From a virus (Duplodnaviria > Caudoviricetes): 64,000 nucleotides of DNA. The notes under the pieces are model-generated. The model was not told where the DNA came from, did no database searches, and saw only the letters and a program-made list of their open reading frames with translations. Both the position numbers and the translations under genes were made by a program. Shown here in pieces: positions 8,709 to 60,159 of this stretch (the first letter of the stretch is position 1; the number at the start of each line of letters is the position of its first letter). The stretch is taken from positions 1,780 to 65,779 of IMG/VR virus record IMGVR_UViG_3300033061_002769; one strand, 5' to 3'.

Positions 8709-8715
8709 AAATCCG

Positions 8716-13788: not shown

Positions 13789-14365
13789 ACAATCCCGTAA
13801 ACGTGTATTTTCGGTACTCCGGACGCCATTGTGTAATGCCAGTCAACAGATGAAACGCAACCAGCATCCGGTCTACTGTCTCTCGGGTCCACAAGGCATA
13901 ATGTGCTTCTTGCAGTTCCGGATCATAGTTCACAGAAAAGTACAGATGTCCACCGGGTTTCAACACTCGTCGGATCTCTGACACCATCCGTTCTGGATTC
14001 GGGGTGTGGTCAATGACGTTGATACACCAAACGTAGTCAAATGAATTTGCGGGGGAACTCAATTCCTCTCCATCTTCCGCTCGGTAGTTAACCCACGGAG
14101 ATCGATAAGAAAAGATCTTGTCATACTCAAACAGTAGTGGGTCTACGGCTACGATAGGAGTCCCTTTGAATCCTAACGTGCTTACTAATCCACACCCAAG
14201 GTCCAGACCCAAACCGACCTCTTTCTCAATCTCACTCCACAAAAGTCCAGCATCAGCCCGATAGTCATTCCAGCGACGGTGCAAATATTTCTCCGCGTTG
14301 CCACCTTCTTCATCTACAAAGCAACGCCGCCAGAATCCCACCTCGACTTGTTGCTGAGAAGTCAC
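13775..14365 (-). CDS. Class I SAM-dependent methyltransferase
   Basis: LDLGCG, SFDYVWCINVIDH and EIRRVLKPGG. Confidence 0.9.
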   Translation of the reverse strand: MTSQQQVEVGFWRRCFVDEEGGNAEKYLHRRWNDYRADAGLLWSEIEKEVGLGLDLGCGLVSTLGFKGTPIVAVDPLLFEYDKIFSYRSPWVNYRAEDGEELSSPANSFDYVWCINVIDHTPNPERMVSEIRRVLKPGGHLYFSVNYDPELQEAHYALWTRETVDRMLVAFHLLTGITQWRPEYRKYTFTGLYEQS

Positions 14366-15240
14366 TGCAATACCTCCTGGTACACTTTCATCAACTTTTG
14401 CGCAACGTTACTCCAGGTCAATCGTCTGGCTGCCTCGTTCGGTCGCCAATCCCACAAATCCATATCATAAGCTTTCCGAATCTGCTCTTTGAAATACTCC
14501 GGCGACCCATTCGGGTCTACGGTTACCAACCCTGGATACCACTCATTACCACGATTAGCCGATGTCGCCAGCACCCGACAACCTGAGCAAAGAGCTTCAC
14601 CGATGACTAGTGACATTCGTTCCGTATGACTAGCCGACACAAAAACCTTACGGCGTTTATATTGCTCCGGCATTGCTTCATGTGGAAAACCCTGGAGGTA
14701 ATCGAATGGGATATCCAATACATGGCATGCTTCTTCAACTGCGGCCCGCCGCTTCCCATCGTTCTTACGAGCACCAACCGAACAAACTCCCACCCGATCC
14801 GATCCCTCACCAAATGCATGAAATATCGAATCTGTGCCATTCGGGATAGGAGTGTATGGAATACACTCCCCCAACCACACACGCATTTCCTCGCCCTCAG
14901 TACAGGAAAACGGGAGTATCACTGATGCCATTTGTAACCATGCTGCAATCTCTTTCGGCTTCAAGCCGCAGTCTTCGTCAGGATAGAAGATCGGAGTCAC
15001 CACGTATGGTTTCTCTTCCCACGTCGCTACCTTAAAGTTTCCCCGACTCCACAAAAAATTACAGTGGAACACATGTATCAAATCCGCGCGTCCCAGGCTC
15101 TTTAGGTCTTCCGTACCGTCCCAACAGTCCACACCTGCGCGTTGAAGAGCCGCTAGGGTAGCATCCAATGCAATCAGATCTCCTCCGAGATAATCCCGCT
15201 TCCGGTTCAGAAATGCTATACGCATCGCAGCTTCTCGCAA
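14362..15240 (-). CDS. GT-B (GT4-like) glycosyltransferase
   Basis: GGD motif, IPNG and VFVSASHTERMSLVIGEALCSG. Confidence 0.75.
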   Translation of the reverse strand: MREAAMRIAFLNRKRDYLGGDLIALDATLAALQRAGVDCWDGTEDLKSLGRADLIHVFHCNFLWSRGNFKVATWEEKPYVVTPIFYPDEDCGLKPKEIAAWLQMASVILPFSCTEGEEMRVWLGECIPYTPIPNGTDSIFHAFGEGSDRVGVCSVGARKNDGKRRAAVEEACHVLDIPFDYLQGFPHEAMPEQYKRRKVFVSASHTERMSLVIGEALCSGCRVLATSANRGNEWYPGLVTVDPNGSPEYFKEQIRKAYDMDLWDWRPNEAARRLTWSNVAQKLMKVYQEVLQ

Positions 15241-15872
15241 GTCCGTCGGCAGTACAATCCGTGGTCTCCGAAACCCATCCTTCCTGTACTATTGTTCGGA
15301 TGGGGACGGTAATGAAACAATGGCTCATGCAACGCCACGATCTTCCACCCACAGGAAACTATTTTACCCCACAGTAGCCAATCCTCATAGATGTCGCGCT
15401 GCTCGTCGTACCCGCCTACCTGTTCCCAGGCTTGCTTCCGAAACATCGAGCAGCAAAACAGGAGATTGCCCTCTAGAAAACGTTCCGCCGTAAAAGGAGG
15501 AGATACCCGCGCCACGCGTCCATCTGGCCAAACCAGACTTGGGGCCACCACTCCTACTTCAGACGTTATCAACTCTAAACAACGTTCGATGTACGTTGAC
15601 TCAATCCAGTCATCGGCATCCAGAGGTACAATAAACTCTGATCGAGCGGTTGTAATACCGATATTGCGGGCATTGGCCTGTCCCTGCGGCAAGCGGCTCA
15701 TCCAGATAATTCCGTCTCCCTGAGCACGGACCACATCGTGAGAGTTGTCAGTAGATTCCCCATCCACAACAATAATCTCATCGGGGCGAACCGTCTGCGT
15801 CAAAGCACTGCGGAGAGCATCAGCCAAGAACTGGCCATAGTTTAGATTCGGAATGACAACAGCGACACTCAT
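15216..15872 (-). CDS. GT2 glycosyltransferase
   Basis: VVIPNLNYG, IIVVDG, ARNIG, LDADD and EDWLLW. Confidence 0.9.
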   Translation of the reverse strand: MSVAVVIPNLNYGQFLADALRSALTQTVRPDEIIVVDGESTDNSHDVVRAQGDGIIWMSRLPQGQANARNIGITTARSEFIVPLDADDWIESTYIERCLELITSEVGVVAPSLVWPDGRVARVSPPFTAERFLEGNLLFCCSMFRKQAWEQVGGYDEQRDIYEDWLLWGKIVSCGWKIVALHEPLFHYRPHPNNSTGRMGFGDHGLYCRRTCEKLRCV

Positions 15873-16720
15873 ACAACTTCTTCTACCTTTCTTCTGAAGC
15901 TATACAGAATGTCCTGATGTGTAGCTCGCACATCGGAGAAATCCATCATATCCAAATCAATCCGTTCACCGACCAGAAAACGGTCGTTCAATTCTTCAGC
16001 ACTTCCACCCATGCTAACTTGGGGCCAGGCTGTCTGAACCAGATTATGAGGGATGCCTACCAGACTGCTATGCTGATCATAGAATATTTCCAGCGGTTGC
16101 CCCGACCGCTGCATATAAGCTTCCAACCTGTTGGGGCAATCGAACTCCAAACAGCGCACCAACGGGAGAAGGTCGTCGGTCCGGAATACATGACCATCAA
16201 GCGAGTAAGAATACCGGAAGTTCTCTGAGCCCGGAACCTGCTCTTTCCTAGTTACGTAATCCCGTTGAATGTTCTGACCCAGACGAAATGAAAAACACTG
16301 GCCAGACTGTAGTTTTGGAACAAGAGGAGCAGACCGATAGAATACATCGTCGTCTACCAGCATAGTTGTCAATGCTGTATCAGGAAGAATAAGTGAAAGC
16401 AAATCGTCCCGAAAAGAGGAACCCTGCTGAAGAAAGAAAACCTTAGAAGGGTGTTCCGCGATCAGGATTCGGTAGGCTTCCCGATATCGGTCCTCAGTAG
16501 CCAGGAACAGAACGGTGGCCGGAAGTAGCTGCGGAGCAAACCGTATCAGGCTCCTCAGTAGAGCATCAAGCTGGGTGGCCCGATCTTTGGAGAAAATGAT
16601 TGTGTTAATACTCACGTGAGGTTCAACAGGCGTTAGAGAAACCAACCAGATCCCGTCACGCATTAGGACACGAACAGGCGCTGGCGCATCAGATCTTTTG
16701 ATGAGAGGATTCGAGATCAC
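15869..16720 (-). CDS. Putative GT-A glycosyltransferase, paralog of domain 2 of the 1639-aa protein
   Basis: IIFSKDRATQLDALL and VDDDVFY; long near-identical blocks shared with 51357-56276. Confidence 0.6.
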   Translation of the reverse strand: MISNPLIKRSDAPAPVRVLMRDGIWLVSLTPVEPHVSINTIIFSKDRATQLDALLRSLIRFAPQLLPATVLFLATEDRYREAYRILIAEHPSKVFFLQQGSSFRDDLLSLILPDTALTTMLVDDDVFYRSAPLVPKLQSGQCFSFRLGQNIQRDYVTRKEQVPGSENFRYSYSLDGHVFRTDDLLPLVRCLEFDCPNRLEAYMQRSGQPLEIFYDQHSSLVGIPHNLVQTAWPQVSMGGSAEELNDRFLVGERIDLDMMDFSDVRATHQDILYSFRRKVEEVV

Positions 16721-17124
16721 GATTCGGGGCTCAGTCTATCCAACAATCTACCGCAGTATGGACAGTATATGATACCCTGGGCAGCAATGCAGCCGCCGTG
16801 TGAGTCGCAAGAATCAAGGTGGAATGAACCATCTTGTTCCTCATGGATGGGGTAAGATTTCCCCTCAGTGCAACCTGCATGAACCTGTTTGTATTCGTCG
16901 ATTGCTTCCTTCTCCTTCAAATACTTTTCGTAGAGGCTCGGGTCCTCCGTCTGCGCCTTGGAGCAGGCTTGCAGATAATCGATGGAGTCACGCCCCATGA
17001 TCTTTAGAGCTCGCCGGTCAAGTTCAGCTTCTGCAGCAGTGGCTGCTATCATGTATGGCTGAGGCGATTCTGACGAGGGTTTAGACGCGATTTGGTAATT
17101 TCTGCATCTCTTTTTATGTCTCAC
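16717..17124 (-). CDS. Hypothetical protein with a scaffold-C-terminus-like segment and a Cys-rich end
   Basis: RD.I...A..KA..E.P..Y..Y pattern shared with the scaffold C-terminus; CPYC motif. Confidence 0.55.
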   Translation of the reverse strand: MRHKKRCRNYQIASKPSSESPQPYMIAATAAEAELDRRALKIMGRDSIDYLQACSKAQTEDPSLYEKYLKEKEAIDEYKQVHAGCTEGKSYPIHEEQDGSFHLDSCDSHGGCIAAQGIIYCPYCGRLLDRLSPES

Positions 17125-17130
17125 GCTAGA

Positions 17131-17730
17131 TTATACTGGATTCTTGACCACCCACCAGAATCGAAACCTGACTTGTCTTTCAGGCAACAGTTCGTCTACC
17201 GCCTCAATTACTCCAAAGTCTTTCAGAACAACATAGTCATCGCCGCAAATCACCTTTCGGGCTTTAGGACCATACAAACGAATATCCCCTGCACAGCCTT
17301 CATAGCTGTGATCTCCGTCAATGTAGACTAAATCTGCTTGGTCTACTTGATCATAGACCAGTTTAGAATCTCCACGAACGACGCGGATCTTCTCCCAAAG
17401 ACCGACTCGGCGCATGTTTTCTTCAAACACCTTGAAGAAGTCCCGTGGGACCCCGCCGTTCTTGAGCACTGCAACCAGGTTGTTGTTATCGGGTTTCTCG
17501 GCAGGTTCATACCAACGGTCTACGCAGGTTATCGTATCGACTCGCTGGGCAAACCAGCCGGCAGAGAGCCCAAAGAGGGTTCCAATCTCAATCACTGAAC
17601 GGATATCATATTCCGCAATCAGCCGTTCTAACTCTTCGCGGTTCTCCTGGAGTAGCCAACCAGTCACTCCAGGTAAAGAATCAACCAGACCCGGGTTGAT
17701 TATACATTCCGCCATCGGCTTCCTTCGCAA
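17131..17730 (-). CDS. SAM methyltransferase (Methyltransf_24-like)
   Basis: IEIGTLFGLS, YIDGDHSYEG and ICGDDY. Confidence 0.85.
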   Translation of the reverse strand: MRRKPMAECIINPGLVDSLPGVTGWLLQENREELERLIAEYDIRSVIEIGTLFGLSAGWFAQRVDTITCVDRWYEPAEKPDNNNLVAVLKNGGVPRDFFKVFEENMRRVGLWEKIRVVRGDSKLVYDQVDQADLVYIDGDHSYEGCAGDIRLYGPKARKVICGDDYVVLKDFGVIEAVDELLPERQVRFRFWWVVKNPV

Positions 17731-18497
17731 GGAGCTGTACGTCCCTCAGAAAAAGATACTGAACCACTCCAGTCATTGGCTTGGTGAAAGACGGCCGGGA
17801 AAAATTCCCAATCGTATCCGAAGTTTTTGCCCGCCTGGCAAGCTTCCCGATAAAGTGGGATGCCGTACTTGGCTGCCAACAATGTTAGGATCGATTGGTC
17901 TGCACGGTGCTCCCGCTGCTCTGGCAATTCAGAAGCGTAGGTACTCGGCATGTTTGTGTTGGCATGGAGATTCAGCAAATACGTCTGCCATTCCATAAGC
18001 AGTTGTTGTACGAGCCACGGCCCTTTTTTGAAAAGCATGAATCGTCCTACTCCTGCCTTCAATGCATGATAACGCGGATCGTCCATCCCCATCACTATGT
18101 AGCAATCTCGTTTGCACCACTGCCGTTGCCACCAGGTCGAAGCCTCAAACAACATGATCCCGTCCCGTTCGGCAATCTGGTACAACGGAATGAGATTGGA
18201 AACCGGATAAGTATCTCCATCGGTATAGAGTACTATGTCTCCAACCTCACATCGGTTCAAGGCGTCCATGATGATATAGGATTTCCAACACCACCAACCG
18301 AAGCCTCGCCTAAAAGGAAGCGGTTCCCACAACCACCGATTGAGTGCGTAGAACTCCTGTTCGGTAAGCCATTTGTCATCATAGACAAGTACCTGGTCGG
18401 CCCCAAGTCGAGGCGCGTCCTCGACTATCTTTTGGACAGTCCGATCATAGACTGCTCCACCAAATGTGATGTAGACCCTTTTCATAACTCCTTCCAC
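17700..18497 (-). CDS. Putative glycosyltransferase
   Basis: RGFGWWCWKSYII, LYTDGD (DxD-like) and EHRADQSIL; paralog of 20962-21711. Confidence 0.6.
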   Translation of the reverse strand: MEGVMKRVYITFGGAVYDRTVQKIVEDAPRLGADQVLVYDDKWLTEQEFYALNRWLWEPLPFRRGFGWWCWKSYIIMDALNRCEVGDIVLYTDGDTYPVSNLIPLYQIAERDGIMLFEASTWWQRQWCKRDCYIVMGMDDPRYHALKAGVGRFMLFKKGPWLVQQLLMEWQTYLLNLHANTNMPSTYASELPEQREHRADQSILTLLAAKYGIPLYREACQAGKNFGYDWEFFPAVFHQANDWSGSVSFSEGRTAPCEGSRWRNV

Positions 18498-19072
18498 CAG
18501 AACGAAGCATTTGACCCATGTTTCGGAAACGCTTCCCTGACTGCCTGAACGACTCCGGGAAAATAAGGTACTCCCTGCGAATCGGAATGGTAGTCATCAC
18601 CGCAAATCACTTTTTTCGCTTTGGAAAGATAAAGACAGATGTCTCGACTGCATCCCTCGTAGGAATGATCTCCATCAATGTAGACTAAATCCACCTCCAG
18701 AACCTGCCAAAAGACTTCTTCGGAACGGCCGCGAATAGCGGTGATCTTCCCCCAAACTCCAGCCGCTTCCATATTACTACGGAACAGGTCGAAGAATGGA
18801 TTGGGAAAGCAACCGATACGCAAGGTCTCGACAAGATTATTCTCGCAGGGCCAAACTGCGCTCTCCTCAAACGGATCTATGCACCAAAGATGCTGTACTC
18901 GTTTGGCTATCCAAACTGCCGAACGTCCCAGAAAAGTTCCGATCTCCAATGCTGTCTCAATTTCATGCTTCTCAATCAGTTGCACAAGTTCGTCCTGATT
19001 GGCTTGAGGAAACCAGCCGAAGATCTCCGGAATCTCGGTCATACAATTACTTTCCACCAAAAAGATCCGCAA
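18482..19072 (-). CDS. SAM methyltransferase (Methyltransf_24-like)
   Basis: LEIGTFLGRS, YIDGDHSYEG and ICGDDY; paralog of 17131-17730. Confidence 0.85.
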   Translation of the reverse strand: MRIFLVESNCMTEIPEIFGWFPQANQDELVQLIEKHEIETALEIGTFLGRSAVWIAKRVQHLWCIDPFEESAVWPCENNLVETLRIGCFPNPFFDLFRSNMEAAGVWGKITAIRGRSEEVFWQVLEVDLVYIDGDHSYEGCSRDICLYLSKAKKVICGDDYHSDSQGVPYFPGVVQAVREAFPKHGSNASFWWKEL

Positions 19073-20085
19073 GCTTTATGGCCGGGGAGCTTCTGGTACA
19101 ACATTTCCCGAATACTGTTACGTTGATATTCATCTCCACAAATAACCCGTTGCGCTTTTGGGAGACAAGCAATAATAGCGTTTTCGACTTCCGAAAGAGA
19201 GCGTTCCCCGTTGATAAATACCAGATCGGCATGGGTCGCATCGGTAGTCATTAGTTGTTTAACCCTTTGAGCGAGCCAGGATGATACGGCGGCGCAAATT
19301 CCCTCTCCTAAAACTGACTGAATCTTATGTTCTTGGATTAGACTTTCTAACCTCTTGAGATTGTCTGCCGACATCCACTCGGCTTCCGGTGGGTGTAAGC
19401 CCATCTCAGCTACCACAACAGGAGAGATACCGTGCTTGCGGAAAAATACTGCGTCGTTGTGTTCAAAGGAAATCGGACGGCGGTCTGGTTCACGAAAAGC
19501 GCTGGGAAGAAACGCATGATCCACAAAACACCCGTCGCAGACTCCGACACGATATCCGGCTTTCCGGGCGCGGTAACAGTAGTCGTCATCCTCGCGCCCG
19601 TAGTCAGTGTAGTCTTCATCCAACAGCCCAATCTTGTCAACCATCTCCCGCTGAAGGTAGACACAGATAAAGGCAACCATAACCACCTCGCGAACGCCTG
19701 ACTCGGCCAGTCCTTTCTTTTGTGGAAGATTGCCGGTTCGATTCGTGACTGCCGCCACAATTCCATAACCGGAGCGTGCTGCCTTAGACAAAGCTGTAAA
19801 TCCCCAAACAGTCTTCAGCACAGCATCATCGTTGAGCAGGATGACATCGTTGGTTCCCGCTGCCCGTATGCCCAAATTACAGTTTCGGGAGAAAACAAAA
19901 GGTTGGATACCTGGCAGGATCGTGACTTGTCCAGAACCGAACTCCGGCGGAGGGGGTAGGTAGGAATCAGGAAGACCGTCATCTATGACGATCACATCCG
20001 CGCCTGGCTCATGGCAGCGGACAGCGGAAAGGCAAGCATTGAGATTAGCTGCTGCCTTTGTGGGAATTACTATAATGAACGGCAC
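19039..20085 (-). CDS. GT2 glycosyltransferase fused to a degenerate methyltransferase domain
   Basis: VIDDG, FSRNCNLG, LLNDD and EDDDYC; C-terminal DLVFING...ICGDEY is a decayed copy of the neighbouring MTase. Confidence 0.75.
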   Translation of the reverse strand: MPFIIVIPTKAAANLNACLSAVRCHEPGADVIVIDDGLPDSYLPPPPEFGSGQVTILPGIQPFVFSRNCNLGIRAAGTNDVILLNDDAVLKTVWGFTALSKAARSGYGIVAAVTNRTGNLPQKKGLAESGVREVVMVAFICVYLQREMVDKIGLLDEDYTDYGREDDDYCYRARKAGYRVGVCDGCFVDHAFLPSAFREPDRRPISFEHNDAVFFRKHGISPVVVAEMGLHPPEAEWMSADNLKRLESLIQEHKIQSVLGEGICAAVSSWLAQRVKQLMTTDATHADLVFINGERSLSEVENAIIACLPKAQRVICGDEYQRNSIREMLYQKLPGHKACGSFWWKVIV

Positions 20086-20957: not shown

Positions 20958-20961
20958 TCGG

Positions 20962-50375: not shown

Positions 50376-50718
50376 TCCCCATCACGACTTTTACATACTG
50401 GTCGCTTACTTCGTCCACATGCCGTTCGATATTGAGTATAGGAGGAAACGGAGCTGCATCCCCTAGGATGTAGACACAATCCTCGTAACCAATATTAGGA
50501 GTCGCCAAAATGATGATCTCCGAACTAGAAACGACTTCAGCACCTTCACCACGAACACGAGCCTGTGCTGGAACACGAGACTTCTTGTAGATGCGCCGCC
50601 CCGTGAAAGTCTGTGCTGCGCCATAGACCGGTTTCCCGTAAGCGTCACGTGACGCCAATGGTGTCCATACCACAGTCTGTGGACACATGTCCATGAAATC
50701 ATCGACAAAGCTAGACAC
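50362..50718 (-). CDS. Head closure/stopper protein
   Basis: 118 aa, RDAYGKP motif, neck position. Confidence 0.7.
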   Translation of the reverse strand: MSSFVDDFMDMCPQTVVWTPLASRDAYGKPVYGAAQTFTGRRIYKKSRVPAQARVRGEGAEVVSSSEIIILATPNIGYEDCVYILGDAAPFPPILNIERHVDEVSDQYVKVVMGSASG

Positions 50719-51388
50719 GAGTTGTCTCCAAGAGCGATTCCAAAGATTGAAATGGCCAACACTTCAATCCAGACTCCGGTGTAGCATTGATCACCTCAAC
50801 TCCAATTTTAGCCAGCGGCTCTACCAGTGAATCAAAACAGGGCAGCATTGAATCGCGAATGACACTCTCGAATCCATCAGGGCGTATCTCATCATGCCAA
50901 TGCGTACGGCCATTAATAGCGCGCATGTCCACGCCCAAAAGCACAATCCGCCGAACGTCGTAATGCACAGCCAGATTCATCGCCTGATAAGTACTGTTCG
51001 ACCCATGACGCAGTCCCAACGGGGCCGTCTCCAATCCAAGCTGCCCAGTCAGCCGCAAATAATGAACTTGCGGATGGCCCTGAAAAGCTGGGCTGCTCGT
51101 CACCCAGAAGCCCCGATAAATCATTTCGTGGAAGCATACGGGTGAAGCCGGAACCGTACTTATTGAACGAAGGTTCTTGGCCATCTGATACTGCCACCAA
51201 TGCTCATCACAGAAATAGAAGACCGATGCCCAGGGTGCCAACCGCCAACTGTCATTAATAGTAATCACCCGTCCATGACCCCGAAGAACATCAGCATCGA
51301 ATCCTCGCAATGACGGGCCGCCGGCAAGGATAAAGCAGGTTTCATCAGGCCATGATTTAGGTACTGACCAAAGCATCTCTTTCCTCAC
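50711..51388 (-). CDS. DUF115/MptE-like putative glycosyltransferase
   Basis: ILAGGPSL, ITIN, GSNSTYQAMN and IVLLGVDM; paralog of 22476-23048. Confidence 0.6.
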   Translation of the reverse strand: MRKEMLWSVPKSWPDETCFILAGGPSLRGFDADVLRGHGRVITINDSWRLAPWASVFYFCDEHWWQYQMAKNLRSISTVPASPVCFHEMIYRGFWVTSSPAFQGHPQVHYLRLTGQLGLETAPLGLRHGSNSTYQAMNLAVHYDVRRIVLLGVDMRAINGRTHWHDEIRPDGFESVIRDSMLPCFDSLVEPLAKIGVEVINATPESGLKCWPFQSLESLLETTRV

Positions 51389-54300
51389 TTATACGGAGAG
51401 TTTCCGCTACAACCTCTACCGTCTCTGATAAATCTCCGTTGATGAAATGAACTCCTGAGCACGCAAATGCACCCTGATAGATCGGTAAATTCCGCATCAG
51501 CACCGGCATTCCCCAGGCCAATGCTTCTCGGGGAACGAGTGGTGACAACTCCGAGGTGGAGGTAAACAGCAGCACATCCATCGCTGCGTAGAAGCGGTCC
51601 ACATCATTACGTTCACCCCAGATGTTACAGTTGACAGGACGGATCTTCATCAACGGTTCCCAGTAATCTGAAAAATTTAGCGCCTGATTCCCAACAAAAT
51701 GGAACTCAACAGCCGGCAACTCCCGCGCGATCTCAAAAGCTTCACGCTGATTCTTGCCTGGTGTAAAGAGCCCAACGTTAAGTACATGTTTCAGATCTGG
51801 ATCTAGACCCAGCGAGGTCAGAGCTATCGTCCTATCGGGCCGTACCTTCGGAGAGACTGAATATTCAGCAATCGAACACGGTATGAGCGGGTGGGCTTCT
51901 CGGCACAGATCAGCGTGATGTTGACAAACAACGACAAACGCATCGGGTATCCATCGCTTTGCTCTTGGATCGAAGCTACTGTCGTGGGATGTCTCGACAA
52001 GGCGGTAGCGCCTGTCGTTACGGTAAAGCACTTCACAAGCAGGGTTCGGAAGGAAGTACTCAGCGTGCTCTTGTAGGTGCACGATGTCTGGATTGAACTC
52101 AGTTAGCATCTCGGACAGCGCCGCCACACGATTCATGTGTCCATGGAATGGATGAAGGATGCCCATATCCTCGATTTGCTTCCTCTGCACCACGAAGTCC
52201 GACCCGTAGTAGTTCCATTCAACCACACACACTTCGGCCCCGACCGCGCGCAGGTCCCGAACACAGTTGAGCGCATACTGCGGAAGTCCGCCGGTGGAGA
52301 GATGCGGAACGATCTCCAGCACCCGCCAAGGATGAATGCCTAGAACTTCCGGGAACTGGGTCACCCTCTGAGGCATTGCTTCCGGGAACTGGGTTGCGCT
52401 CCGGGGCATTGGCAGAGCCGAGTTGATCGCGTCCTTCACCATCTCGACTGTAATTGCCTTGGTGCATTCGAAGTTCTTCTCACGTGGACACCATTCGGGG
52501 TCGGCTCGGTTGAGTAGATAAGTCGTGTCGTTGAAGCACCCGTGACATACGGACTCATTGATGACTCGGTAGCAGTCCTGCATCTCCACGTAGCGTGGGG
52601 TCATTCCGGATATGAGCACGACAGGGACGCCAAGAGCCCAAGCAACCCAGGCGAGGCCCGAGGATACACCGATGAACAGATCCGCGTGCTGAATGTTTCG
52701 GATTGTCTCCTCAATAGGCCGATCGTTCCAGCGCAATACACCGCCAAGGTGAGTAGGTTCCTTGCTCACGGAGGCTACAGAATAGCCCATGGTAGATAGG
52801 TAATCGGCAATAGCCTGCCACTTGTCTTGTGTCCACTGCTTCCCCACGTACCCGCGCGAGTAAGCGCGCTCGGCCTGGCCAATGACTTGAAATGCCGAGA
52901 ACTCAGAGAACGCGACATACTTCTCTTTGGGGGCAGGCAAATCAGAGGTGTAAATCTTCGGCCGAATCTCCCGGTAGTCCAATCCCAATATATCCGAAGC
53001 CACCTTTTGTAGCGGTATAGTACGCCAAGGAATGCGGTTGCGGTGGCCTCCGTCCCCATCCCAAGCCCCAATGAGGTAAGTCGCACAGTAGCTTTCACGC
53101 TGGGCTTCACCTGGGTTGTAGAATGTGATTTCCGGGTAGGCAGACTCAAACAAATCCTTCCAGAATGTCTCAACCTCGACTTGGCAACCACATTGCTGGC
53201 GCAGTTCATCGGCATAGGGCATCCAGGCCACTGTGTCTCCCAATGCGGAACTAGTGAGCACCACGAGCACACGCTTGCCCCGCAAGTCCATCTCGTGACG
53301 CAACACCTCGACTCCGTTCTCCGTCACTGTGACTCGCCAAGGGATGCGATACCTCGGGTTCGCGGCGGCATAATAGCCCGGTCCGATGGTCGTCGTATAG
53401 ACATTCTCACCAGTCGCCATGTTGTCAAATCGGACAGTGCACTCAGTCTTAGAATCCTCACTGACGCGGACAAATGCTCCATCATTGAACAGTAGGCGAA
53501 CCTGGCTACCACCCGGAGTAACGACCGCCCGAGGAGGCCCATCCGACTGCTCTCCCGAGAGCGCAGCAATGACTTCGGGAGGGCCAGCGGCAAACATACC
53601 GATCCGAACAGCAGGGTTACCCAAAGACATCACGTCAAAGAATGGAAACTTCGTGCGGAGTAACTTCCTGAACGCCGCATATCCACCATCGAGGTGATAC
53701 TCGCCTACAATGAAGCCAATTCTGTTGGCAGCGACGAAAGAACTCATCTGCTTGACAATCTCCACTTCGCTGCCCTCGCAGTCAAGCTTCAACAGATCGA
53801 TATAGACAGCTTCCTCAGCCACGTTTTCCATCGTTACCGACGGCACACCGGTCTCGCTTATCTCTCGCTCGCCGGCCGCTCCACCAGGAAGGGCATACAC
53901 ACCCTCCTTGGTGGTCAGAATCCCGCCCCCAGTCGGATAACCTCTGTGTTCCGCAAGCACAGTCTTCTCGGGTTCGTAAGAGACCGCCTGCCGCCGGACC
54001 TGAACACTCGTTCTGCCGTTCGCCCTCATGTTCCGCTCATACAGAGAGGCAGATTGCCGGTTGGGTTCATAGACAATTAAGTGACTCTCAGGCCACAACG
54101 ATTTCGCCAGCAACCCGAACGTCCCGATGTTTCCACCCACATCCACAATGGTCTCCGGCTTCGGGATCAGTTTGGACAATTCCCTCAAGCAGTAGCAGTC
54201 GTTGATGATCACCTCATCCACAACGTAGCGGTCGCGCTCATGCGGCAACTGAATCACCATCCCATCCGCTTCAGTAACACAGGACCGAAGATGCTTGTAC

Positions 54301-56276
54301 CTCTCATGGATCATGTCAGTAAGCGCCTGTTGGCAATCAGCCAGTTGGTGCACAACTGAGGCGGAATGAAAGCGGTAGTGAAAAAGGGGTTTCTGTACCA
54401 CAGCTACCTGCCATCCTGCCAGCATGATTTTGATCCAGAGATCCCAATCCTCGTGCCGCTCCTGCTCGTCAAACCCACCGGCCTCTGACCACGCCTGTTT
54501 GCGGAACATAGAGGCGCAGAAAACCGGGTTGGACTGGAACATGTCGATAAGCGTAATCCTGTCCGGTGGGTTCCAGCTATTCTCCTGCTCACCGAAACAC
54601 TGAATGCCAGTGGAGACCAACCCGACACATTCAGTTATCTTCGCCCGGCATTCCTCGATGTACGTGGACGCAATCCAGTCATCCGAGTCAAGGCAGATAA
54701 TATACTCTCCAGACGCGGCCTCGATCCCTCTATTCTTAGCAGCCCCTTGGGTGCCCGTAGCCTGCAATACCTTTACCTGAGGGTAGCGAGCAGCGACTTC
54801 CAAACTGTCATCAGTCGAGCCGTCATCCACCACGATGATCTCCTGCGGCAGCACGGTCTGCTTCAAACAAGACTCAATTGTCTCTGCTAGGTAGCGACCA
54901 TAGTTCAAATTCGGGATCACTACGGTAACCGCCGCCCCCTCCCTGGCGTTCGCCTTGAACACGTAGGGAATATTCACGTGTGTCGAGTCCACATTGGAGA
55001 AGTCCATCGCCTCCACGTGTATCTTCTCACCATACAGGAATCGCCCATTGAGTTCTTCCGCACTACCGCCCATTGACTTCTGCGGCCATGCCGTCTGCAC
55101 CACGTTATGTGGAATGCCAACTAGGCTATTCCACTGATCGTAAACGACTTCCAACTGCCTACCCCTGCGCTGCATGGCAGCCTCCAATCGGTTCGGACAG
55201 TCAAAGTCAAGATCCGCTATCAGCGGCAGAATTTCATCAGTGCGTAATACATGACCATCAAGCGAGTAGGAGTAACGGAAATTCTCGCTACCCGGAGATT
55301 GAGGAGCATCCGTATGCCAATCACGCACAACATTCAACCCTAAACGATAAGAGAAGCACTGCCCTAAGTTCAGACGTGGAACCACGGGAGCCGACCGATA
55401 GAATACATCATCATCTACAAAAAAGACGGTCTGCTCGCATGGTTCAATGAGCTTCAGCAAGCTCCCCTTGAAATCGTCCCCCTGCAAGACAAACTGAACA
55501 CCCTTATGACCTTGCATCAAGACCTGATAACCTTTGCTGTAGTTAGCCCCCGTAGCAAGATACAAAACTTTCACTGGAAACAGGTCAGGAGCGAATCGTT
55601 CCATGCTGTTCAACAGCGCATCCAACTGCATCGCGCGATTCTTGGAGAAGATAATAACGTTCGGCTTCAATGCTTTCCTCCGCAACAATATATCGTCGTA
55701 GTCCTCTTCGACCACTTCAAAATCAGGGAGCATGGCCAGGAACTCGTCACGCAATGCCTGACCCTCATACATCTCGATCTTGTAGGACTCAACAAAGATC
55801 CAGTCGGTCTGGCCGAGAATTTTCCGGCCGCCCCTAACCATGTCCTTCTCAGCACCTTGGATGTCCGCCCAGAGCAGATCGATGTGGGAGATTTCGTGCA
55901 TCCATGCTAGATCATCCAACGTCAAGCAAGACACAATCACTGAACGGTCAAAAGTGATCTCAGGATGAACCGTCGTGTGCAGTTTCGGCTTGCGAATGGA
56001 ACTGGAGCGGGCTGTCTCGATGGCACTTTCATCCCCGGACAGGTAGAAGTCGATATCGCCACCGTGGGAAGCGACAGCCACGGAGAGTGGGTAGATGCCA
56101 GGAACCTCCCGCAAGATTGGAAAATGCCTCGGGTCAGGCTCAACAGCGATATAGACTGGGAAGCCATTGCAAGCTGCCCGCAGCCAACGTGTATCTGCAC
56201 CTTGGTGTGCCCCCAGTTCCACAACCACCGGGCTGTTCAGTCTGGCCAGGATCTGCTGAATGCGGGATTTGATCAT
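51357..56276 (-). CDS. 1639-aa glycosylation mega-enzyme: FkbM MTase + GT-A-like + GT2 + FkbM MTase + Aah/TibC-type heptosyltransferase + GT4-like
   Basis: VELGAHQG/DIQGAE; IIFSKNR..DDDVFY; VVIPNLNYG..LDSDD; VDVGGNIG/KLDCEGSE; ALGDTVAW.PY, FIGVSSGLAW and CHGC..WCP..FECT; PHLSTGG, NVGLFTPGKNQ and ELSPLVPREAL. Confidence 0.88.
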   Translation of the reverse strand: MIKSRIQQILARLNSPVVVELGAHQGADTRWLRAACNGFPVYIAVEPDPRHFPILREVPGIYPLSVAVASHGGDIDFYLSGDESAIETARSSSIRKPKLHTTVHPEITFDRSVIVSCLTLDDLAWMHEISHIDLLWADIQGAEKDMVRGGRKILGQTDWIFVESYKIEMYEGQALRDEFLAMLPDFEVVEEDYDDILLRRKALKPNVIIFSKNRAMQLDALLNSMERFAPDLFPVKVLYLATGANYSKGYQVLMQGHKGVQFVLQGDDFKGSLLKLIEPCEQTVFFVDDDVFYRSAPVVPRLNLGQCFSYRLGLNVVRDWHTDAPQSPGSENFRYSYSLDGHVLRTDEILPLIADLDFDCPNRLEAAMQRRGRQLEVVYDQWNSLVGIPHNVVQTAWPQKSMGGSAEELNGRFLYGEKIHVEAMDFSNVDSTHVNIPYVFKANAREGAAVTVVIPNLNYGRYLAETIESCLKQTVLPQEIIVVDDGSTDDSLEVAARYPQVKVLQATGTQGAAKNRGIEAASGEYIICLDSDDWIASTYIEECRAKITECVGLVSTGIQCFGEQENSWNPPDRITLIDMFQSNPVFCASMFRKQAWSEAGGFDEQERHEDWDLWIKIMLAGWQVAVVQKPLFHYRFHSASVVHQLADCQQALTDMIHERYKHLRSCVTEADGMVIQLPHERDRYVVDEVIINDCYCLRELSKLIPKPETIVDVGGNIGTFGLLAKSLWPESHLIVYEPNRQSASLYERNMRANGRTSVQVRRQAVSYEPEKTVLAEHRGYPTGGGILTTKEGVYALPGGAAGEREISETGVPSVTMENVAEEAVYIDLLKLDCEGSEVEIVKQMSSFVAANRIGFIVGEYHLDGGYAAFRKLLRTKFPFFDVMSLGNPAVRIGMFAAGPPEVIAALSGEQSDGPPRAVVTPGGSQVRLLFNDGAFVRVSEDSKTECTVRFDNMATGENVYTTTIGPGYYAAANPRYRIPWRVTVTENGVEVLRHEMDLRGKRVLVVLTSSALGDTVAWMPYADELRQQCGCQVEVETFWKDLFESAYPEITFYNPGEAQRESYCATYLIGAWDGDGGHRNRIPWRTIPLQKVASDILGLDYREIRPKIYTSDLPAPKEKYVAFSEFSAFQVIGQAERAYSRGYVGKQWTQDKWQAIADYLSTMGYSVASVSKEPTHLGGVLRWNDRPIEETIRNIQHADLFIGVSSGLAWVAWALGVPVVLISGMTPRYVEMQDCYRVINESVCHGCFNDTTYLLNRADPEWCPREKNFECTKAITVEMVKDAINSALPMPRSATQFPEAMPQRVTQFPEVLGIHPWRVLEIVPHLSTGGLPQYALNCVRDLRAVGAEVCVVEWNYYGSDFVVQRKQIEDMGILHPFHGHMNRVAALSEMLTEFNPDIVHLQEHAEYFLPNPACEVLYRNDRRYRLVETSHDSSFDPRAKRWIPDAFVVVCQHHADLCREAHPLIPCSIAEYSVSPKVRPDRTIALTSLGLDPDLKHVLNVGLFTPGKNQREAFEIARELPAVEFHFVGNQALNFSDYWEPLMKIRPVNCNIWGERNDVDRFYAAMDVLLFTSTSELSPLVPREALAWGMPVLMRNLPIYQGAFACSGVHFINGDLSETVEVVAETLRISEERDALVST

Positions 56277-56333: not shown

Positions 56334-57167
56334 TCAAGCCAACCCGTCCACAGTTTTGACGGCAGCGACGGCCAAGCCGTAAAAAGTTTTCACGCTTGCT
56401 TTTACAAGATCATTGATGGTTTTGAGGTTGCCGCCCGCCGCCGGGATGAAGTAGCGGCGGTATTGGGGGACGAGGATGTTTGAGTATGGATCATTGTACA
56501 GACTGAGAATTTCTTTAGAACTTAACACCCGGTTATAGACGCTGACATCTCGGATCTGTCCGGCCCAATATGCCGCAACGGCTGCACTCCATCGACCCAT
56601 GTTAAATGACATTACATCGTTAGAGGTGTTCGTTGGATTCGCCGCGAACATGATGCCGTTCACACTCATGTACCCTTCCGCAGCGGACACGCGGCTCAAC
56701 GAGATGTGAGTCCAATTGGTGGTAGTTGGGACACCAGAATCTATGTAGATGTTTGCCTGATATACCTGGACTGTTCCGTCCCTGTTGGGAACGATCGCTC
56801 CATCGGGAATACCGCTACTATCGCCTAATCCTAATGCTCCACCGACACTTGAGCCCGTCGAGGCTGGCTTACAGTCCACAACTAGTGTCCATCCATCCCG
56901 AGGCAACGGCAGCGTTCCGATCACCACGCAATCGTCGCTCCCATCAAAGTCAAGACAAAACCCTCGACTGGACCCGACCCAGTCGGTTGCTGGGTCCATG
57001 CCAGTTAAAGTGCCAACATCACCTCGGACTACATTCAGCAAAGAACTACCTGCGCCCTCATTGATCAGCCATCTACCAACCAACCCTCTCGACATCGGAT
57101 GCCCCAGGTCGATCATCGAACCTGGGGGAGGTTTGGTGTAGCCACGGCCTGCGCGGGAATAACTCAT
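56334..57167 (-). CDS. LamG/concanavalin A-like virion lectin-fold protein
   Basis: GLVGRWLINEGAG, LDFDGSDD, WTHI and GQIRDVSVYNRVLS. Confidence 0.8.
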   Translation of the reverse strand: MSYSRAGRGYTKPPPGSMIDLGHPMSRGLVGRWLINEGAGSSLLNVVRGDVGTLTGMDPATDWVGSSRGFCLDFDGSDDCVVIGTLPLPRDGWTLVVDCKPASTGSSVGGALGLGDSSGIPDGAIVPNRDGTVQVYQANIYIDSGVPTTTNWTHISLSRVSAAEGYMSVNGIMFAANPTNTSNDVMSFNMGRWSAAVAAYWAGQIRDVSVYNRVLSSKEILSLYNDPYSNILVPQYRRYFIPAAGGNLKTINDLVKASVKTFYGLAVAAVKTVDGLA

Positions 57168-58203: not shown

Positions 58204-60159
58204 TCACGTATGGGTAATCCAAGAATTGTCGGGGCTGAAAAACAGTGCGTCAGCCGTAAGCGCCTGACCGATAATACGAATGACAACATCGGTCGTAGTC
58301 GGCTGTATGCTCGTAACGTTACCGGCTGTTTCTGAAACGTATACAGGGGCACCTATTGTCATCGTCGGGAATCGAGCATCCGCCCGCACCTCGCCCCACA
58401 GTAGCATCTTAGTGGCTGATCCGTCTCCCGCCGCCGCCAACACACAGATACCAAGCAGATTGCGAGAGTCACCAGCACCTGCCGCCGCCGCATTGGCATC
58501 TGTCAATTCCCATCGGGAGTCGGCGGTTTGCAAATAACACAGATCGCCAAACACCAATGTAGCTCCGGCTGTTCCTGAGATCACAATCCCGGAGTATTTC
58601 CCGTCGGCTGATAGAGATGAATCCAGCGCTAGGCCCGTGTTCTCGCCGAGATCGAGTTCGGCAGCGAGAGGATTGGCGGAGGACGTTCCACTAGTACCCC
58701 CAGTCCCTCCAGTACCTGCTGTCCCAGAGGTCCCGCTCGTTGAACTAATTCCTGAAGTACCGCTTGTTCCAGTAGTACCCGAACTGCCCGATACGCCCGT
58801 AGTTCCACTTGAGGCACCCGTTGTACCTGATGTCCCCGAAGTTCCAGATACCCCCGATGTGCCACTTGTTCTTGACGCGCCCCCAGTGCCTGACGTACCG
58901 CTACTCGCGCCTGTTGTACCCGAAGTCCCCGCTGTCCCCGAAGTTCCAGATACCCCTGTTGTGCCGCTCGAAGAGGCACTAGTGCCGGATGTACCGGCAG
59001 TACCTGAGGTGCCCGTTGTCCCACTTGAAGATGCCGAGGTCCCGCTGGTCCCCGCCGTCCCACTCGTCCCCGATATACCCGTGGTACCGCTACTCGCTCC
59101 AGTCGTGCCAGAAGTGCCAGCGGTTCCTGAAGTCCCTGAAACACCAGACGTACCACTAGATGCTCCCGTAGTCCCCGAGGTTCCTGCCGTCCCCGAAGTC
59201 CCCGTAGTTCCGCTCGACGCTCCAGTTGTCCCTGATGTTCCCGAAGTACCTGACACACCTGTTGTGCCACTGGAGGCTGCCGATGTGCCCGAGGTACCCG
59301 CAGTTCCGCTGGTCCCACTTGTGCCTGAACTTCCACTTGACCCGGCAATCGAAATACCGGACGTTCCCGACGTGCCCGTAGTACCGCTGGAAGCCCCAGT
59401 AGTGCCAGAAGTTCCGGCAGTCCCGGAGGTTCCTGTTGTCCCACTGGAAGCTCCGGTTGTTCCCGACGTGCCTGCCGTTCCCGACGAACCAGGCACACCG
59501 GGTGCTCCAGAAGCACCACTCACCCCCGAAGTTCCACCTGTCCCGCTTGTCCCCGAGCTTCCACTAGAGCCGGAGATAGATGTACCTGATGTACCCGAGG
59601 TTCCTGTCGTACCGCTGGAAGCCCCCGTAGTTCCGGAAGTGCCGGCCGTGCCTGAGGTACCACTGCTGCCCGACACACCTGATGTACCACTAGAAGAAGC
59701 TGAGGTGCCTGAGGTTCCGCTCGTTCCAGACGCGCCTCCGGTCCCGCTAGTTCCTGAACTTCCGCTGGAGCCGGCAATAGATGTTCCAGACGTTCCCGAT
59801 GTGCCAGTAGTACCACTGCTCGCTCCAGTTGTGCCCGAAGTGCCGGCTGTACCTGAAGTTCCCGATGCACCCGTGGTTCCGCTACTTGCACCTGTTGTAC
59901 CAGATGTCCCGCTAGTTCCCGATATACCAGATGTCCCACTTGAGGCACCAGTTGTGCCTGAGGTCCCGGCTGTGCCTGAGGTCCCAGCTGTTGAAGAAAT
60001 ACCTGAGGTCCCCGCAGTACCACTACTCCCAGGAATAGTAAGCCCACTGGTTCCAGATGAGCCGGAAACACCAGAACTTCCCGAAACGCCCTGCGGCCCA
60101 GCAACGCCTAGTTCAAGAATCACTACCGGCGACTCGTCTATTTCAATTGTCATTGGCAT
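58204..60159 (-). CDS. Collagen-like Gly-X-Y Ser/Thr-rich fibre with a globular C-terminal domain
   Basis: GPQG start, then ~470 aa of [16 protein letters not shown] units; C-terminal ~155-aa beta domain ([20 protein letters not shown]). Confidence 0.85.

What the first reader, a model, noticed from the sequence alone, without database searches (positions are those of the whole stretch)
52420..53510. Aah/TibC-type heptosyltransferase domain with an intact iron-finger motif
Seen: an N-terminal beta module, RVLVVLTSSALGDTVAWMPY (candidate catalytic Asp), KQW, FIGVSSGLAW, LISG and four cysteines in VCHGCFND...WCPREKNFECTKAI. Established: this matches the bacterial autotransporter heptosyltransferase family (Aah/TibC), whose natural substrates are autotransporters. 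No autotransporter is encoded in this window, so the substrate must differ.
Basis: partly seen in the sequence, partly recalled or inferred. Interest (0 to 1): 0.8.

Follow-up and report, generated by a model that had tools for sequence, protein, structure and literature searches.

The report
Phage TibC-like glycosyltransferase beside collagen-like fibre
An uncultured phage carries a true TibC/Aah-type protein glycosyltransferase domain inside a six-domain enzyme, and comparison with other phages suggests it sugar-coats the phage's own serine-rich collagen-like fibre rather than a bacterial autotransporter.

Summary
Window 52419-53522 (-) encodes a TibC/Aah-type (BAHT) domain. It scores 237 bits on TIGR04414 (cut-off 200), E 1e-41 against TibC, and its AF2 model matches TibC at TM 0.88-0.90. 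The catalytic Asp and all four iron-finger Cys are kept.

It is not a stand-alone gene. It is residues 919-1286 of a 1639-aa protein with the domains FkbM-MT, unknown, GT2, FkbM-MT, BAHT and GT4. This gene sits in the structural module of an uncultured siphovirus-like phage. The record holds no AIDA repeat and no autotransporter domain.

The domain belongs to a short-thumb lineage found mostly in phages:
- The dodecamer "thumb" region is 6 residues, against 16 in the autotransporter-linked homologs.
- TibC's adenine-contacting Arg-286 is Thr here.
- 52 of 100 short/mid-thumb loci have a Ser/Thr-rich collagen-like ORF nearby, against 1 of 58 long-thumb loci.
- The same holds for 41 of 80 BAHT phage loci against 7 of 215 random viral loci.

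In this phage a 651-aa, 45% Ser+Thr collagen-like fibre lies three genes upstream. That fibre is the likely acceptor, but no transfer has been shown. The phage also encodes an NDP-heptose pathway, which is rare among BAHT phages. The donor sugar is unresolved.

Verdict: a new variant of a known kind. First-reader notes in this scan proposed the same system on this window.

The parts
51357..56276 (-). One 1639-aa ORF (P0001): a soluble six-domain glycosyltransferase/methyltransferase
   Evidence: ORF list and translation; Pfam and NCBIfam domains. The only hydrophobic peak is the buried FIGVSSGLAW core of the BAHT domain.
55728..56216 (-). Domain 1, residues 21-183: FkbM-family methyltransferase
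   Evidence: PF05050 E 9e-29; TIGR01444 with two stretches.
54942..55676 (-). Domain 2, residues 201-445: phage-typical domain of unknown function with an invariant VDDD; possibly GT-A-like
   Evidence: Paralog of window 15869-16720 (62% identity) and homolog in L004. Atlas clusters are 83-96% viral, with a weak GT2 lead. The AF2 model is poor (pLDDT 52); only the first ~90 residues show a Rossmann-like beta-alpha pattern.
54279..54926 (-). Domain 3, residues 451-666: GT2 (GT-A) glycosyltransferase
   Evidence: PF00535 E 5.5e-28.
53730..54152 (-). Domain 4, residues 709-849: second FkbM-family methyltransferase
   Evidence: TIGR01444 best stretch 709-849.
52419..53522 (-). Domain 5, residues 919-1286: the BAHT (TibC/Aah-type) domain of the finding. 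Kept: D1014 (TibC D110), K1146 (K230), W1148, W1210 (W305), and C1244/C1247/C1263/C1271 (Fe finger). Changed: T1191 for R286, A1128 for T226, S1205 for P300.
   Evidence: residue roles from PMC4358343.
52842..52886 (-). Insertion of 14-15 residues (residues 1131-1145, VIGQ...GYVG) just before the beta-phosphate Lys, seen only in this protein
   Evidence: Absent from all 25 aligned homologs. It is the only low-confidence stretch of the AF2 model (domain residues 208-223).
51378..52292 (-). Domain 6, residues 1329-1633: GT4/GT1 (GT-B) glycosyltransferase, the usual partner of the BAHT domain
   Evidence: PF00534, PF13692 and PF13439. It co-occurs with BAHT in 61 of 80 viral loci, in either order. 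Only generic PDB matches.
58204..60159 (-). Candidate acceptor: a 651-aa collagen-like fibre with 151 Ser, 142 Thr, 165 Gly, 11 Pro and 133 G-X-Y triplets, plus a conserved 157-aa C-terminal domain
   Evidence: Pfam Collagen E 9e-35; composition and repeat analysis. It is the S+T outlier of the window: 45% against 19.5% for the next protein and a median of 11%. The C-terminal domain is shared by at least 458 proteins.
56334..57167 (-). 277-aa ConA-like lectin-fold protein between the fibre and the enzyme
   Evidence: PF13385 Laminin_G_3 E 9e-10; phrog_8510 virion structural protein.
50711..51388 (-). 225-aa protein overlapping the enzyme's stop codon; possibly a further protein glycosyltransferase; paralog of 22476-23048
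   Evidence: phrog_4603 'alpha-2,3-sialyltransferase' E 9e-35; weak PF01973 MptE-like hit, below cut-off. Both paralogs hit the same L003 region.
6170..9699 (-). NDP-heptose pathway: GmhB-like phosphatase fused to transaldolase, GmhA-like isomerase, sugar-1-P nucleotidyltransferase, and HddA-like GHMP kinase
   Evidence: Pfam and NCBIfam: TIGR02134 344 bits (above cut-off), HddA model E 3e-46, gmhA E 7e-13, HddC/MurU/ManC-type NTP transferase.
9696..20085 (-). Further sugar-modifying and transfer genes: GFO/IDH/MocA oxidoreductase, SDR epimerase/dehydratase, four GT2, one GT1, three methyltransferases
   Evidence: Pfam.

Best explanation
The stretch encodes a catalytically intact BAHT-fold (TibC/Aah-type) serine O-glycosyltransferase domain. 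It belongs to a short-thumb lineage that is mostly phage-borne. It forms one module of a soluble six-domain enzyme (two FkbM methyltransferases, a GT-A-like unknown domain, GT2, BAHT, GT4) encoded in the structural gene run of an uncultured tailed phage.

Proposed mechanism (inferred): in the infected cell's cytoplasm the BAHT domain puts the first sugar on serines of the phage's own Pro-poor collagen-like fibre (58204-60159; 151 Ser, 142 Thr). By analogy with TibC and Aah that sugar is a heptose. The fused GT4, GT2 and GT-A-like domains then extend the glycan, and the FkbM domains O-methylate it. The virion would therefore carry a glycan-coated fibre. The donor is either host ADP-heptose or the NDP-heptose made by the phage's own pathway (6170-9699).

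Shown here by computation: domain identity, fold, conserved catalytic and Cys4 residues, gene context, and the statistical link to collagen-like ORFs. Inferred only: the acceptor, the sugar, the order of steps and the benefit to the phage.

The confidence given is for the whole statement, fibre acceptor included. The domain identity alone stands at about 0.95.
For: Domain identity: TIGR04414 237-239 bits against a cut-off of 200; TibC E 1e-41 with D110 aligned; fold TM 0.88-0.90 to TibC against at most 0.53 for GT9; Asp, Lys, two Trp and Cys4 kept across 158 homologs.

Phage context: the source is an IMG/VR virus record. Neighbouring genes are connector, major tail, tape measure, TerL, portal and MCP. 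No AIDA or autotransporter domain is present.

Link to collagen-like acceptors:
- 41 of 80 BAHT viral loci have a collagen-like ORF within 10 kb. The median distance is 1.7 kb and six lie within 100 bp. The repeats are 16-59% Ser with almost no Pro.
- Only 7 of 215 random viral loci have one (odds ratio 31, p 8e-21).
- The only two random loci with BAHT+GT4 are both among those seven (p 9e-4).
- By thumb length, 52 of 100 short/mid-thumb loci have a collagen-like neighbour against 1 of 58 long-thumb loci (p 2e-12). Among cellular loci alone the split is 13 of 23 against 1 of 57.
- All four long-thumb loci tested have an AIDA-repeat ORF directly downstream.
- In the related phage L003 (MCP 72% identical) the collagen-like ORF ends 28 bp before the BAHT gene.
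- The cultured Microcystis phage Mel-JY01 has the same layout.

Other support: the fibre is the S+T outlier of the window. BAHT and GT4 co-occur in 61 of 80 viral loci. The heptose pathway genes are present.
Against: - There is no biochemical evidence. Gene neighbourhood does not prove an enzyme-substrate relation.
- About half of the short-thumb loci show no collagen-like ORF within the DNA held.
- The fibre gene is three genes away from the enzyme here, not adjacent.
- Two of TibC's four sugar-nucleotide contacts are not kept (R286 to T, T226 to A). A unique disordered insertion of about 15 residues sits next to the beta-phosphate Lys. The sugar or nucleotide may therefore differ from ADP-heptose, or activity may be altered.
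- The phage pathway looks like the alpha-anomer (HddA/HddC) type, whereas TibC uses a beta-anomer ADP-heptose.
- Only 2 of 49 BAHT phage records carry a GmhA gene, so heptose supply is not generally linked to this domain.
- Homologs occur in archaea and Patescibacteria, which have no ADP-heptose-containing LPS.
- The host is unknown.
Confidence: 0.6

Rival explanations
1. The enzyme glycosylates other virion proteins (major capsid, decoration or tail-tube protein), as reported for mycobacteriophages. On this reading the collagen-like fibre is only a frequent neighbour because both genes sit in structural modules.
For: In relative L003 the BAHT gene lies 2-3 genes downstream of the MCP, and in the window a 15-kb GT/MT cluster follows the MCP. 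About half of the short-thumb loci have no collagen-like ORF in the DNA held. Random control loci are not matched for being in structural modules.
Against: MCP, decoration and tail-tube proteins here have ordinary Ser/Thr content (14-18%) and no Ser-rich tail. The contrast between long- and short-thumb loci holds within cellular genomes too, where no structural-module bias applies: 13 of 23 against 1 of 57. Six loci have the two genes within 100 bp of each other.
Confidence: 0.15
2. The domain modifies a host protein, such as a host autotransporter or another surface adhesin, or a protein encoded in the missing half of the phage genome. It would then act as a conversion or takeover function rather than a virion-maturation enzyme.
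For: The domain passes the TIGR04414 equivalog cut-off. The record is only about 52% complete. The host is unknown.
Against: The gene sits between fibre and neck genes and is co-oriented with them. There is no AIDA or autotransporter domain in the 65.8 kb held. The domain's lineage is separate from the AIDA-linked long-thumb one: thumb state changes only three times on the tree, and the window groups with viral L003/L004 at support 99.
Confidence: 0.06
3. The BAHT domain is a structural or inactive remnant, for example an oligomerisation scaffold for the other five domains, and transfers no sugar itself.
For: A unique disordered insertion of about 15 residues lies beside the beta-phosphate Lys, and TibC R286 and T226 are replaced. 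In TibC, alanine substitution of R286 abolished or largely diminished heptosylation.
Against: The catalytic Asp, K230, W232, W305 and the Cys4 motif are all kept. Thr at the R286 position is the commonest residue among viral homologs (34 of 78), so it is a lineage trait rather than decay. The ORF is intact over 1639 codons.
Confidence: 0.05
4. The domain is an LPS-core GT9 heptosyltransferase acting on a lipid-linked acceptor.
For: A weak PF01075 hit (26 bits) and LPS heptosyltransferase model hits of 18-24 bits.
Against: TIGR04414 scores ten times higher. The fold matches TibC at TM 0.88-0.90 against at most 0.53 for WaaC/WaaF-type structures. The N-terminal beta-barrel and the Cys4 insertion, which the TibC paper describes as distinctive modules of the TibC protomer and unique additions to the GT-B core, are present.
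Confidence: 0.01

Closest known systems
TibC / Aah bacterial autotransporter heptosyltransferases (BAHT; PDB 4RAP, 4RB4; PMC4358343)
   Same: Same fold over the full length: N-terminal beta-barrel, atypical GT-B core and Cys4 iron-finger insertion. The catalytic Asp (D110), K230, W232 and W305 are kept. TIGR04414 scores above its cut-off.
   Different: - It is embedded in a 1639-aa six-domain phage protein rather than being a ~400-aa stand-alone enzyme.
- The adenine-specific R286 is Thr and T226 is Ala.
- There is a unique insertion of about 15 residues.
- No AIDA or autotransporter partner is present; the genomic partner is a collagen-like Ser/Thr-rich protein.
Mycobacteriophage virion glycosylation (Freeman et al. 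2023, Cell Host Microbe; seen only as a citation in PMC12619734, since the paper itself is not held; details are from my own knowledge)
   Same: Phage-encoded glycosyltransferases in the structural gene region are thought to O-glycosylate the phage's own virion proteins in the cytoplasm.
   Different: As I recall, those enzymes are ordinary GT-A/GT-B transferases acting on C-terminal tails of capsid and tail-tube proteins. Here the initiating candidate is a BAHT-fold domain and the candidate acceptor is a collagen-like fibre. I did not compare the two directly.
BclA collagen-like exosporium glycoprotein of Bacillus anthracis (from my own knowledge, not tested here)
   Same: A prokaryotic collagen-like G-X-Thr repeat protein carrying many O-linked, partly methylated oligosaccharides and forming a surface nap.
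   Different: BclA's glycan starts with GalNAc/rhamnose and is built by unrelated rhamnosyltransferases. It is not phage-encoded, has no BAHT domain, and its repeats are Pro-rich (GPT).
Chlorovirus PBCV-1 A064R multi-domain glycosyltransferase/methyltransferase (from my own knowledge; related review PMC4691112 listed)
   Same: A virus-encoded single polypeptide joining several glycosyltransferase domains with a sugar methyltransferase domain to build a virion protein glycan independently of host machinery.
   Different: It comes from a eukaryotic giant virus, has three domains and builds an N-linked capsid glycan. No BAHT fold is known there.
LPS core heptosyltransferases WaaC/WaaF (GT9; PDB 2H1H, 1PSW)
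   Same: A distantly related GT-B core and an ADP-heptose-type donor pocket (W305-type Trp and the GxSGxxW region).
   Different: No N-terminal beta-barrel and no Cys4 insertion; lipid A-Kdo acceptor; fold TM only 0.34-0.53; HMM scores 18-24 bits.

Membership tests
BAHT (TibC/Aah; TIGR04414) | Scores above the curated cut-off of the family HMM | tested here: met
   236.7 bits for the whole protein and 239.1 bits for the domain alone, against a cut-off of 200; 240.9 bits in the six-frame search.
BAHT (TibC/Aah; TIGR04414) | Protomer fold: N-terminal flattened beta-barrel plus atypical GT-B catalytic core | tested here: met
   AF2 model with pLDDT 88.5. Foldseek to 4rap/4rb4 gives TM 0.88-0.90, rmsd 2.1-2.3 A and 378-383 aligned columns.
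BAHT (TibC/Aah; TIGR04414) | Catalytic base Asp-110 | tested here: met
   D1014 in LGDTVAW aligns with TibC D110, which is Ala in the 4rb4 D110A entry. The Asp is invariant in 158 of 158 homologs.
BAHT (TibC/Aah; TIGR04414) | Four iron-finger cysteines (TibC C339, C342, C358, C370) | tested here: met
   C1244, C1247, C1263 and C1271 align with them and are invariant in the alignments. Iron binding itself cannot be tested here.
BAHT (TibC/Aah; TIGR04414) | Four ADP-heptose-binding residues (T226, K230, R286, W305), described as highly conserved in the family | tested here: not met
   K1146 and W1210 are kept. R286 is Thr-1191 and T226 is Ala-1128, and an insertion of about 15 residues precedes the Lys. 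Arg is kept in 65 of 80 cellular homologs but only 21 of 78 viral ones.
   The thumb region is 6 residues here, against 16 in 56 of 80 cellular homologs, and 11 residues are deleted relative to TibC. Oligomeric state cannot be computed here.
BAHT (TibC/Aah; TIGR04414) | Genetic linkage to an AIDA-type autotransporter passenger as the substrate | tested here: not met
   No PF16168 or PF03797 match in the 65.8-kb record. All four long-thumb cellular loci tested have an AIDA-repeat ORF directly downstream.
BAHT (TibC/Aah; TIGR04414) | Transfers heptose from ADP-heptose to Ser of a protein | not testable with these tools
   This needs an enzyme assay or glycoproteomics.
LPS GT9 heptosyltransferases (WaaC/WaaF/WaaQ) | Best profile and fold match is to the LPS heptosyltransferases | tested here: not met
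   TIGR02193, TIGR02201 and PRK10422 score 18-24 bits against cut-offs of 170-467. Fold TM is at most 0.53.
Short-thumb, collagen-linked BAHT lineage (proposed here) | Short or mid-length thumb region, usually fused or adjacent to a GT4 domain, with a Ser/Thr-rich collagen-like ORF nearby | tested here: met
   Thumb region of 6 residues; GT4 fused C-terminally; collagen-like fibre about 1.9 kb upstream. The window groups with viral L003/L004 at support 99 on a tree built without the thumb columns.

The most novel reading that the evidence does not exclude
A large, mostly phage-borne sister lineage of the autotransporter heptosyltransferases has been retargeted from beta-helical AIDA-type passengers to Pro-poor, Ser/Thr-rich collagen-like virion fibres. 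Dense O-glycans, possibly heptose-initiated and methylated, would then take the place of hydroxyproline in stabilising or shielding the rod. In this particular phage the loss of the adenine-specific Arg, together with a phage-encoded HddA/HddC-type pathway, would mean the domain uses a phage-made non-ADP heptose donor. The phage would then have a self-contained protein O-heptosylation system.
Probability: 0.25. Interest if true: 0.8.

Novelty: new variant of a known kind. Interest (0 to 1): 0.62.

Why it matters
BAHT enzymes are known as partners of autotransporter adhesins in Gram-negative pathogens. This analysis shows that the fold is common in phages: at least 594 IMG/VR contigs, and about 1357 clusters at 50% identity overall. 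The phage lineage is genomically tied to collagen-like Ser/Thr-rich proteins instead of autotransporters.

If the fibre is the acceptor, many environmental phages would decorate virion fibres with O-glycans built by fused multi-domain enzymes. That would bear on adsorption, protease resistance, recognition by hosts or grazers, and how a proline-free collagen-type helix can be stable. It would also widen the acceptor range of an unusual iron-finger glycosyltransferase family.

A cultured phage with the same layout, Microcystis phage Mel-JY01, makes the idea directly testable.

Tried and rejected
- **LPS GT9 reading:** rejected.
- **Single-sequence locus search in viral contigs:** found nothing. 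The profile search was needed.
- **Heptose genes travelling with phage BAHTs:** not supported. None of the window's pathway genes hit within 10 kb in 80 viral loci, and GmhA is present in only 2 of 49 whole records.
- **Mel-JY01 'cytidylyltransferase-like' gene as an HldE-type ADP-heptose synthase:** only a borderline PF01467 hit (E 4e-4), so nothing can be concluded.
- **Fibre C-terminal domain as a capsid cement/decoration fold:** rejected. BLASTP E 0.9, no Pfam hit, and the PF09956 hit in P0331 lies in another region.
- **Unknown domain 201-445:** the AF2 model was too weak for a fold search (pLDDT 52). The Atlas gave only viral hypothetical clusters.
- **Host assignment from TerL:** at most 35% identity to any cultured phage, with hits scattered over many hosts.
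- **Sequencing runs:** none was listed, and no RNA holder was listed.
- **Literature:** no paper in the library links TibC/BAHT to phages or to collagen-like proteins in the relevant sense, and none mentions Mel-JY01. Freeman 2023 is not held.
- **GT4 domain:** only generic PDB relatives.
- **CAZy 'GT112' label:** could not be checked with these tools.
Full report
**1. Observation**

The finding's coordinates fall inside one long minus-strand ORF, 51357-56276, of 1639 aa. All quoted motifs are present.

- The stretch 52420-53510 scores 239 bits (E 7e-71) on TIGR04414 'autotransporter strand-loop-strand O-heptosyltransferase', whose curated cut-off is 200. LPS heptosyltransferase models reach only 18-24 bits.
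- phmmer against PDB sequences finds only TibC (4rap, 4rb4), at E 1e-41 over TibC residues 28-384. The Asp of LGDTVAW lies at the position that is Ala in the D110A entry.
- An AF2 model built on a 26-sequence alignment is confident (pLDDT 88.5, pTM 0.88). It superposes on TibC at TM 0.88-0.90 and rmsd 2.1-2.3 A. The next folds, LPS GT9 enzymes, reach 0.34-0.53.

**2. What it belongs to**

The ORF has six domains:

| Domain | Residues | Assignment |
|---|---|---|
| 1 | 21-183 | FkbM methyltransferase |
| 2 | 201-445 | unknown |
| 3 | 451-666 | GT2 |
| 4 | 709-849 | FkbM methyltransferase |
| 5 | 919-1286 | BAHT |
| 6 | 1329-1633 | GT4 |

The unknown domain has a paralog in the window (15869-16720, 62% identical) and an invariant VDDD. 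It belongs to clusters that are 83-96% viral. Its AF2 model was too weak to search with. No transmembrane segment is predicted: the one hydrophobic peak is the buried FIGVSSGLAW core of the BAHT domain.

The window is an IMG/VR virus record of 65.8 kb, about 52% complete. Read along the minus strand, the genes run as follows:

- TerL, portal, MuF, protease fusion, decoration protein, MCP;
- a 15-kb sugar/GT/MT cluster;
- further on, collagen-like fibre, two small ORFs, a lectin-fold protein, the giant enzyme, and a Maf/sialyltransferase-like protein;
- head-tail connectors, major tail protein and tape measure.

TerL is at most 35% identical to that of any cultured phage, so the host is unknown. 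The record has no AIDA repeat and no autotransporter beta-domain.

**3. Comparison with TibC, residue by residue**

The TibC paper (PMC4358343) defines these roles:

- D110 is the catalytic base.
- T226 and K230 contact the beta-phosphate.
- R286 contacts adenine N1, and the authors say this contact is incompatible with guanine.
- W305 contacts heptose O4.
- P300 (Ser in Aah) is the determinant of D,D- against L,D-heptose choice.
- C339, C342, C358 and C370 bind iron.

The window keeps D (1014), K (1146), both Trp, and all four Cys. It has Thr-1191 for R286, Ala-1128 for T226 and Ser-1205 for P300. An insertion of about 15 residues before the Lys is absent from 25 homologs and disordered in the model. 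The thumb region is 6 residues.

Across 158 homologs, Asp, the two Trp and Cys4 are essentially invariant. Arg-286 is kept in 65 of 80 cellular homologs but only 21 of 78 viral ones, where Thr occurs in 34. The thumb region is 16 residues in 56 cellular homologs and 6-13 residues in 77 of 78 viral ones.

**4. Two lineages with two kinds of partner**

At 50% identity there are 1357 representative clusters, and most near relatives are long fusions. Many relatives are fused to GT1 or methyltransferase domains, some in archaeal MAGs. In 61 of 80 viral loci a GT4 domain accompanies BAHT, in either order.

I scanned the flanks for collagen-like ORFs, defined as at least 12 G-X-Y triplets in runs of at least 6.

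- 41 of 80 BAHT viral loci have one. Many have hundreds of triplets. The repeats are 16-59% Ser with almost no Pro. The median distance is 1.7 kb, and six lie within 100 bp.
- Two random samples of viral contigs, fetched with arbitrary 14-mers, gave 7 of 215 (odds ratio 31, Fisher p 8e-21).
- Only two of those 215 random loci carry BAHT+GT4, and both are among the seven with a collagen-like ORF (p 9e-4).
- Split by thumb length, long-thumb loci have a collagen-like neighbour in 1 of 58 cases and short/mid-thumb loci in 52 of 100 (p 2e-12). Within cellular genomes alone the split is 1 of 57 against 13 of 23.
- Long-thumb loci instead have a 1300-2000-aa ORF directly downstream, and all four tested carry AIDA repeats.
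- On a tree built without the thumb columns, thumb state changes only three times. The window groups with viral L003 and L004 at support 99. This was a FastTree run, and the tool flagged joins between long branches, so deep branches should be read with caution.

**5. The candidate acceptor here**

Window 58204-60159 encodes a 651-aa protein with 151 Ser, 142 Thr, 165 Gly and 11 Pro. It has 133 G-X-Y triplets broken by one-residue shifts every 5-8 triplets; the strongest long lag is 19. It is the S+T outlier of the phage: 45%, against 19.5% for the next protein and a median of 11%.

In the related phage L003 (MCP 72% identical), an 840-aa collagen-like ORF ends 28 bp before the BAHT gene. In the cultured Microcystis phage Mel-JY01, an open frame of G-T-S/G-S-S triplets (185 triplets) runs off the record start. 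It is followed by a Ser-rich 'structural protein' and then the FkbM...BAHT gene.

The fibre's 157-aa C-terminal domain is 60-73% identical in at least 458 proteins with very different N-terminal parts. It is probably a conserved anchoring or trimerisation module. It is not detectably related to the cement protein.

**6. Donor**

The window encodes four pathway genes:

- a GmhB-like phosphatase fused to transaldolase (6170-7429; TIGR02134, 344 bits);
- a GmhA-like isomerase;
- an HddA-like GHMP kinase (E 3e-46);
- an HddC/ManC/MurU-type nucleotidyltransferase.

By established pathway knowledge this is the alpha-anomer, GDP-heptose type of route. TibC uses ADP-beta-heptose. The loss of the adenine-specific Arg is compatible with a changed nucleotide preference but does not show it.

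Heptose genes are not a general companion of phage BAHTs: GmhA occurs in 2 of 49 records and in 0 of 10 near-complete ones. The donor therefore stays open.

**7. Verdict**

- The domain is a true BAHT-fold enzyme module (confidence about 0.95).
- It does not meet the family's substrate-linkage feature or two of its donor-contact features. It is best filed as a short-thumb, mostly phage-borne variant.
- The collagen-like fibre as acceptor is the best-supported reading (about 0.6). It rests on gene neighbourhood statistics and composition, not on chemistry.
- Heptose as the transferred sugar is plausible (about 0.5).

First-reader notes from this scan on the same window had already proposed the donor-transferase-fibre system and the six-domain assembly line. 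I reached the same reading independently and tested it against controls. I found no paper linking BAHT enzymes to phages or to collagen-like proteins.

Noticed in passing
window 6170-7429 (-): A single ORF fuses a GmhB-like HAD-IIIA phosphatase (residues 8-160) to a transaldolase (TIGR02134, 344 bits, above cut-off). It heads a heptose operon, which would couple sedoheptulose-7-P supply to heptose activation.
   Followed up: partly
window 20205-20993 (-): An ADP-ribosyltransferase exoenzyme domain (PF03496, E 2e-25) lies between the head genes and the glycosyltransferase cluster.
   Followed up: no
window 50711-51388 (-) and 22476-23048 (-): Two paralogous small proteins. The first matches phrog_4603 'alpha-2,3-sialyltransferase' (E 9e-35) and weakly the MptE/Maf-like fold. 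Both hit the same gene of relative L003, next to its collagen-like ORF. They may be a second kind of protein glycosyltransferase.
   Followed up: partly
window 58207-58677 (-): The fibre's 157-aa C-terminal domain is 60-73% identical in at least 458 proteins whose N-terminal parts differ widely (collagen repeats, pectate-lyase beta-helix, FN3, CBM5/12, lectin fold). It has no Pfam family.
   Followed up: partly
window 56334-57167 (-): A 277-aa ConA-like lectin-fold protein (Laminin_G_3, E 9e-10; also a weak 'virion structural protein' PHROG hit) sits between the fibre and the giant enzyme.
   Followed up: no
window 24927-25003 (-): A tRNA-Ile with anticodon TAT lies between the decoration-protein gene and the 496-aa head gene.
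   Followed up: no
window 1502-3769 (+): A 755-aa plus-strand ORF combines a helicase C-terminal domain with an N6/N4 DNA methylase domain.
   Followed up: no
L002 (Microcystis phage Mel-JY01, PP395634) 2-3049 (+): An open frame of at least 1016 aa with 185 G-X-Y triplets runs off the record start. The record annotates minus-strand 'hypothetical protein' CDSs over most of it and only the last 534 bases on the plus strand, so this is probably a mis-annotated collagen-like fibre gene.
   Followed up: partly
L004 290-4465 (+): A related viral contig carries the same domain set as the giant protein but in another order: BAHT, GT4, GT2, unknown domain, FkbM. The modules are therefore shuffled between relatives.
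   Followed up: partly
L089 and L094 (cellular MAG contigs: Ignavibacteriaceae, Bacteroides): BAHT homologs on contigs binned as bacterial also lie next to large collagen-like ORFs (272 and 64 triplets). These may be prophages or cellular uses of the same pairing.
   Followed up: no
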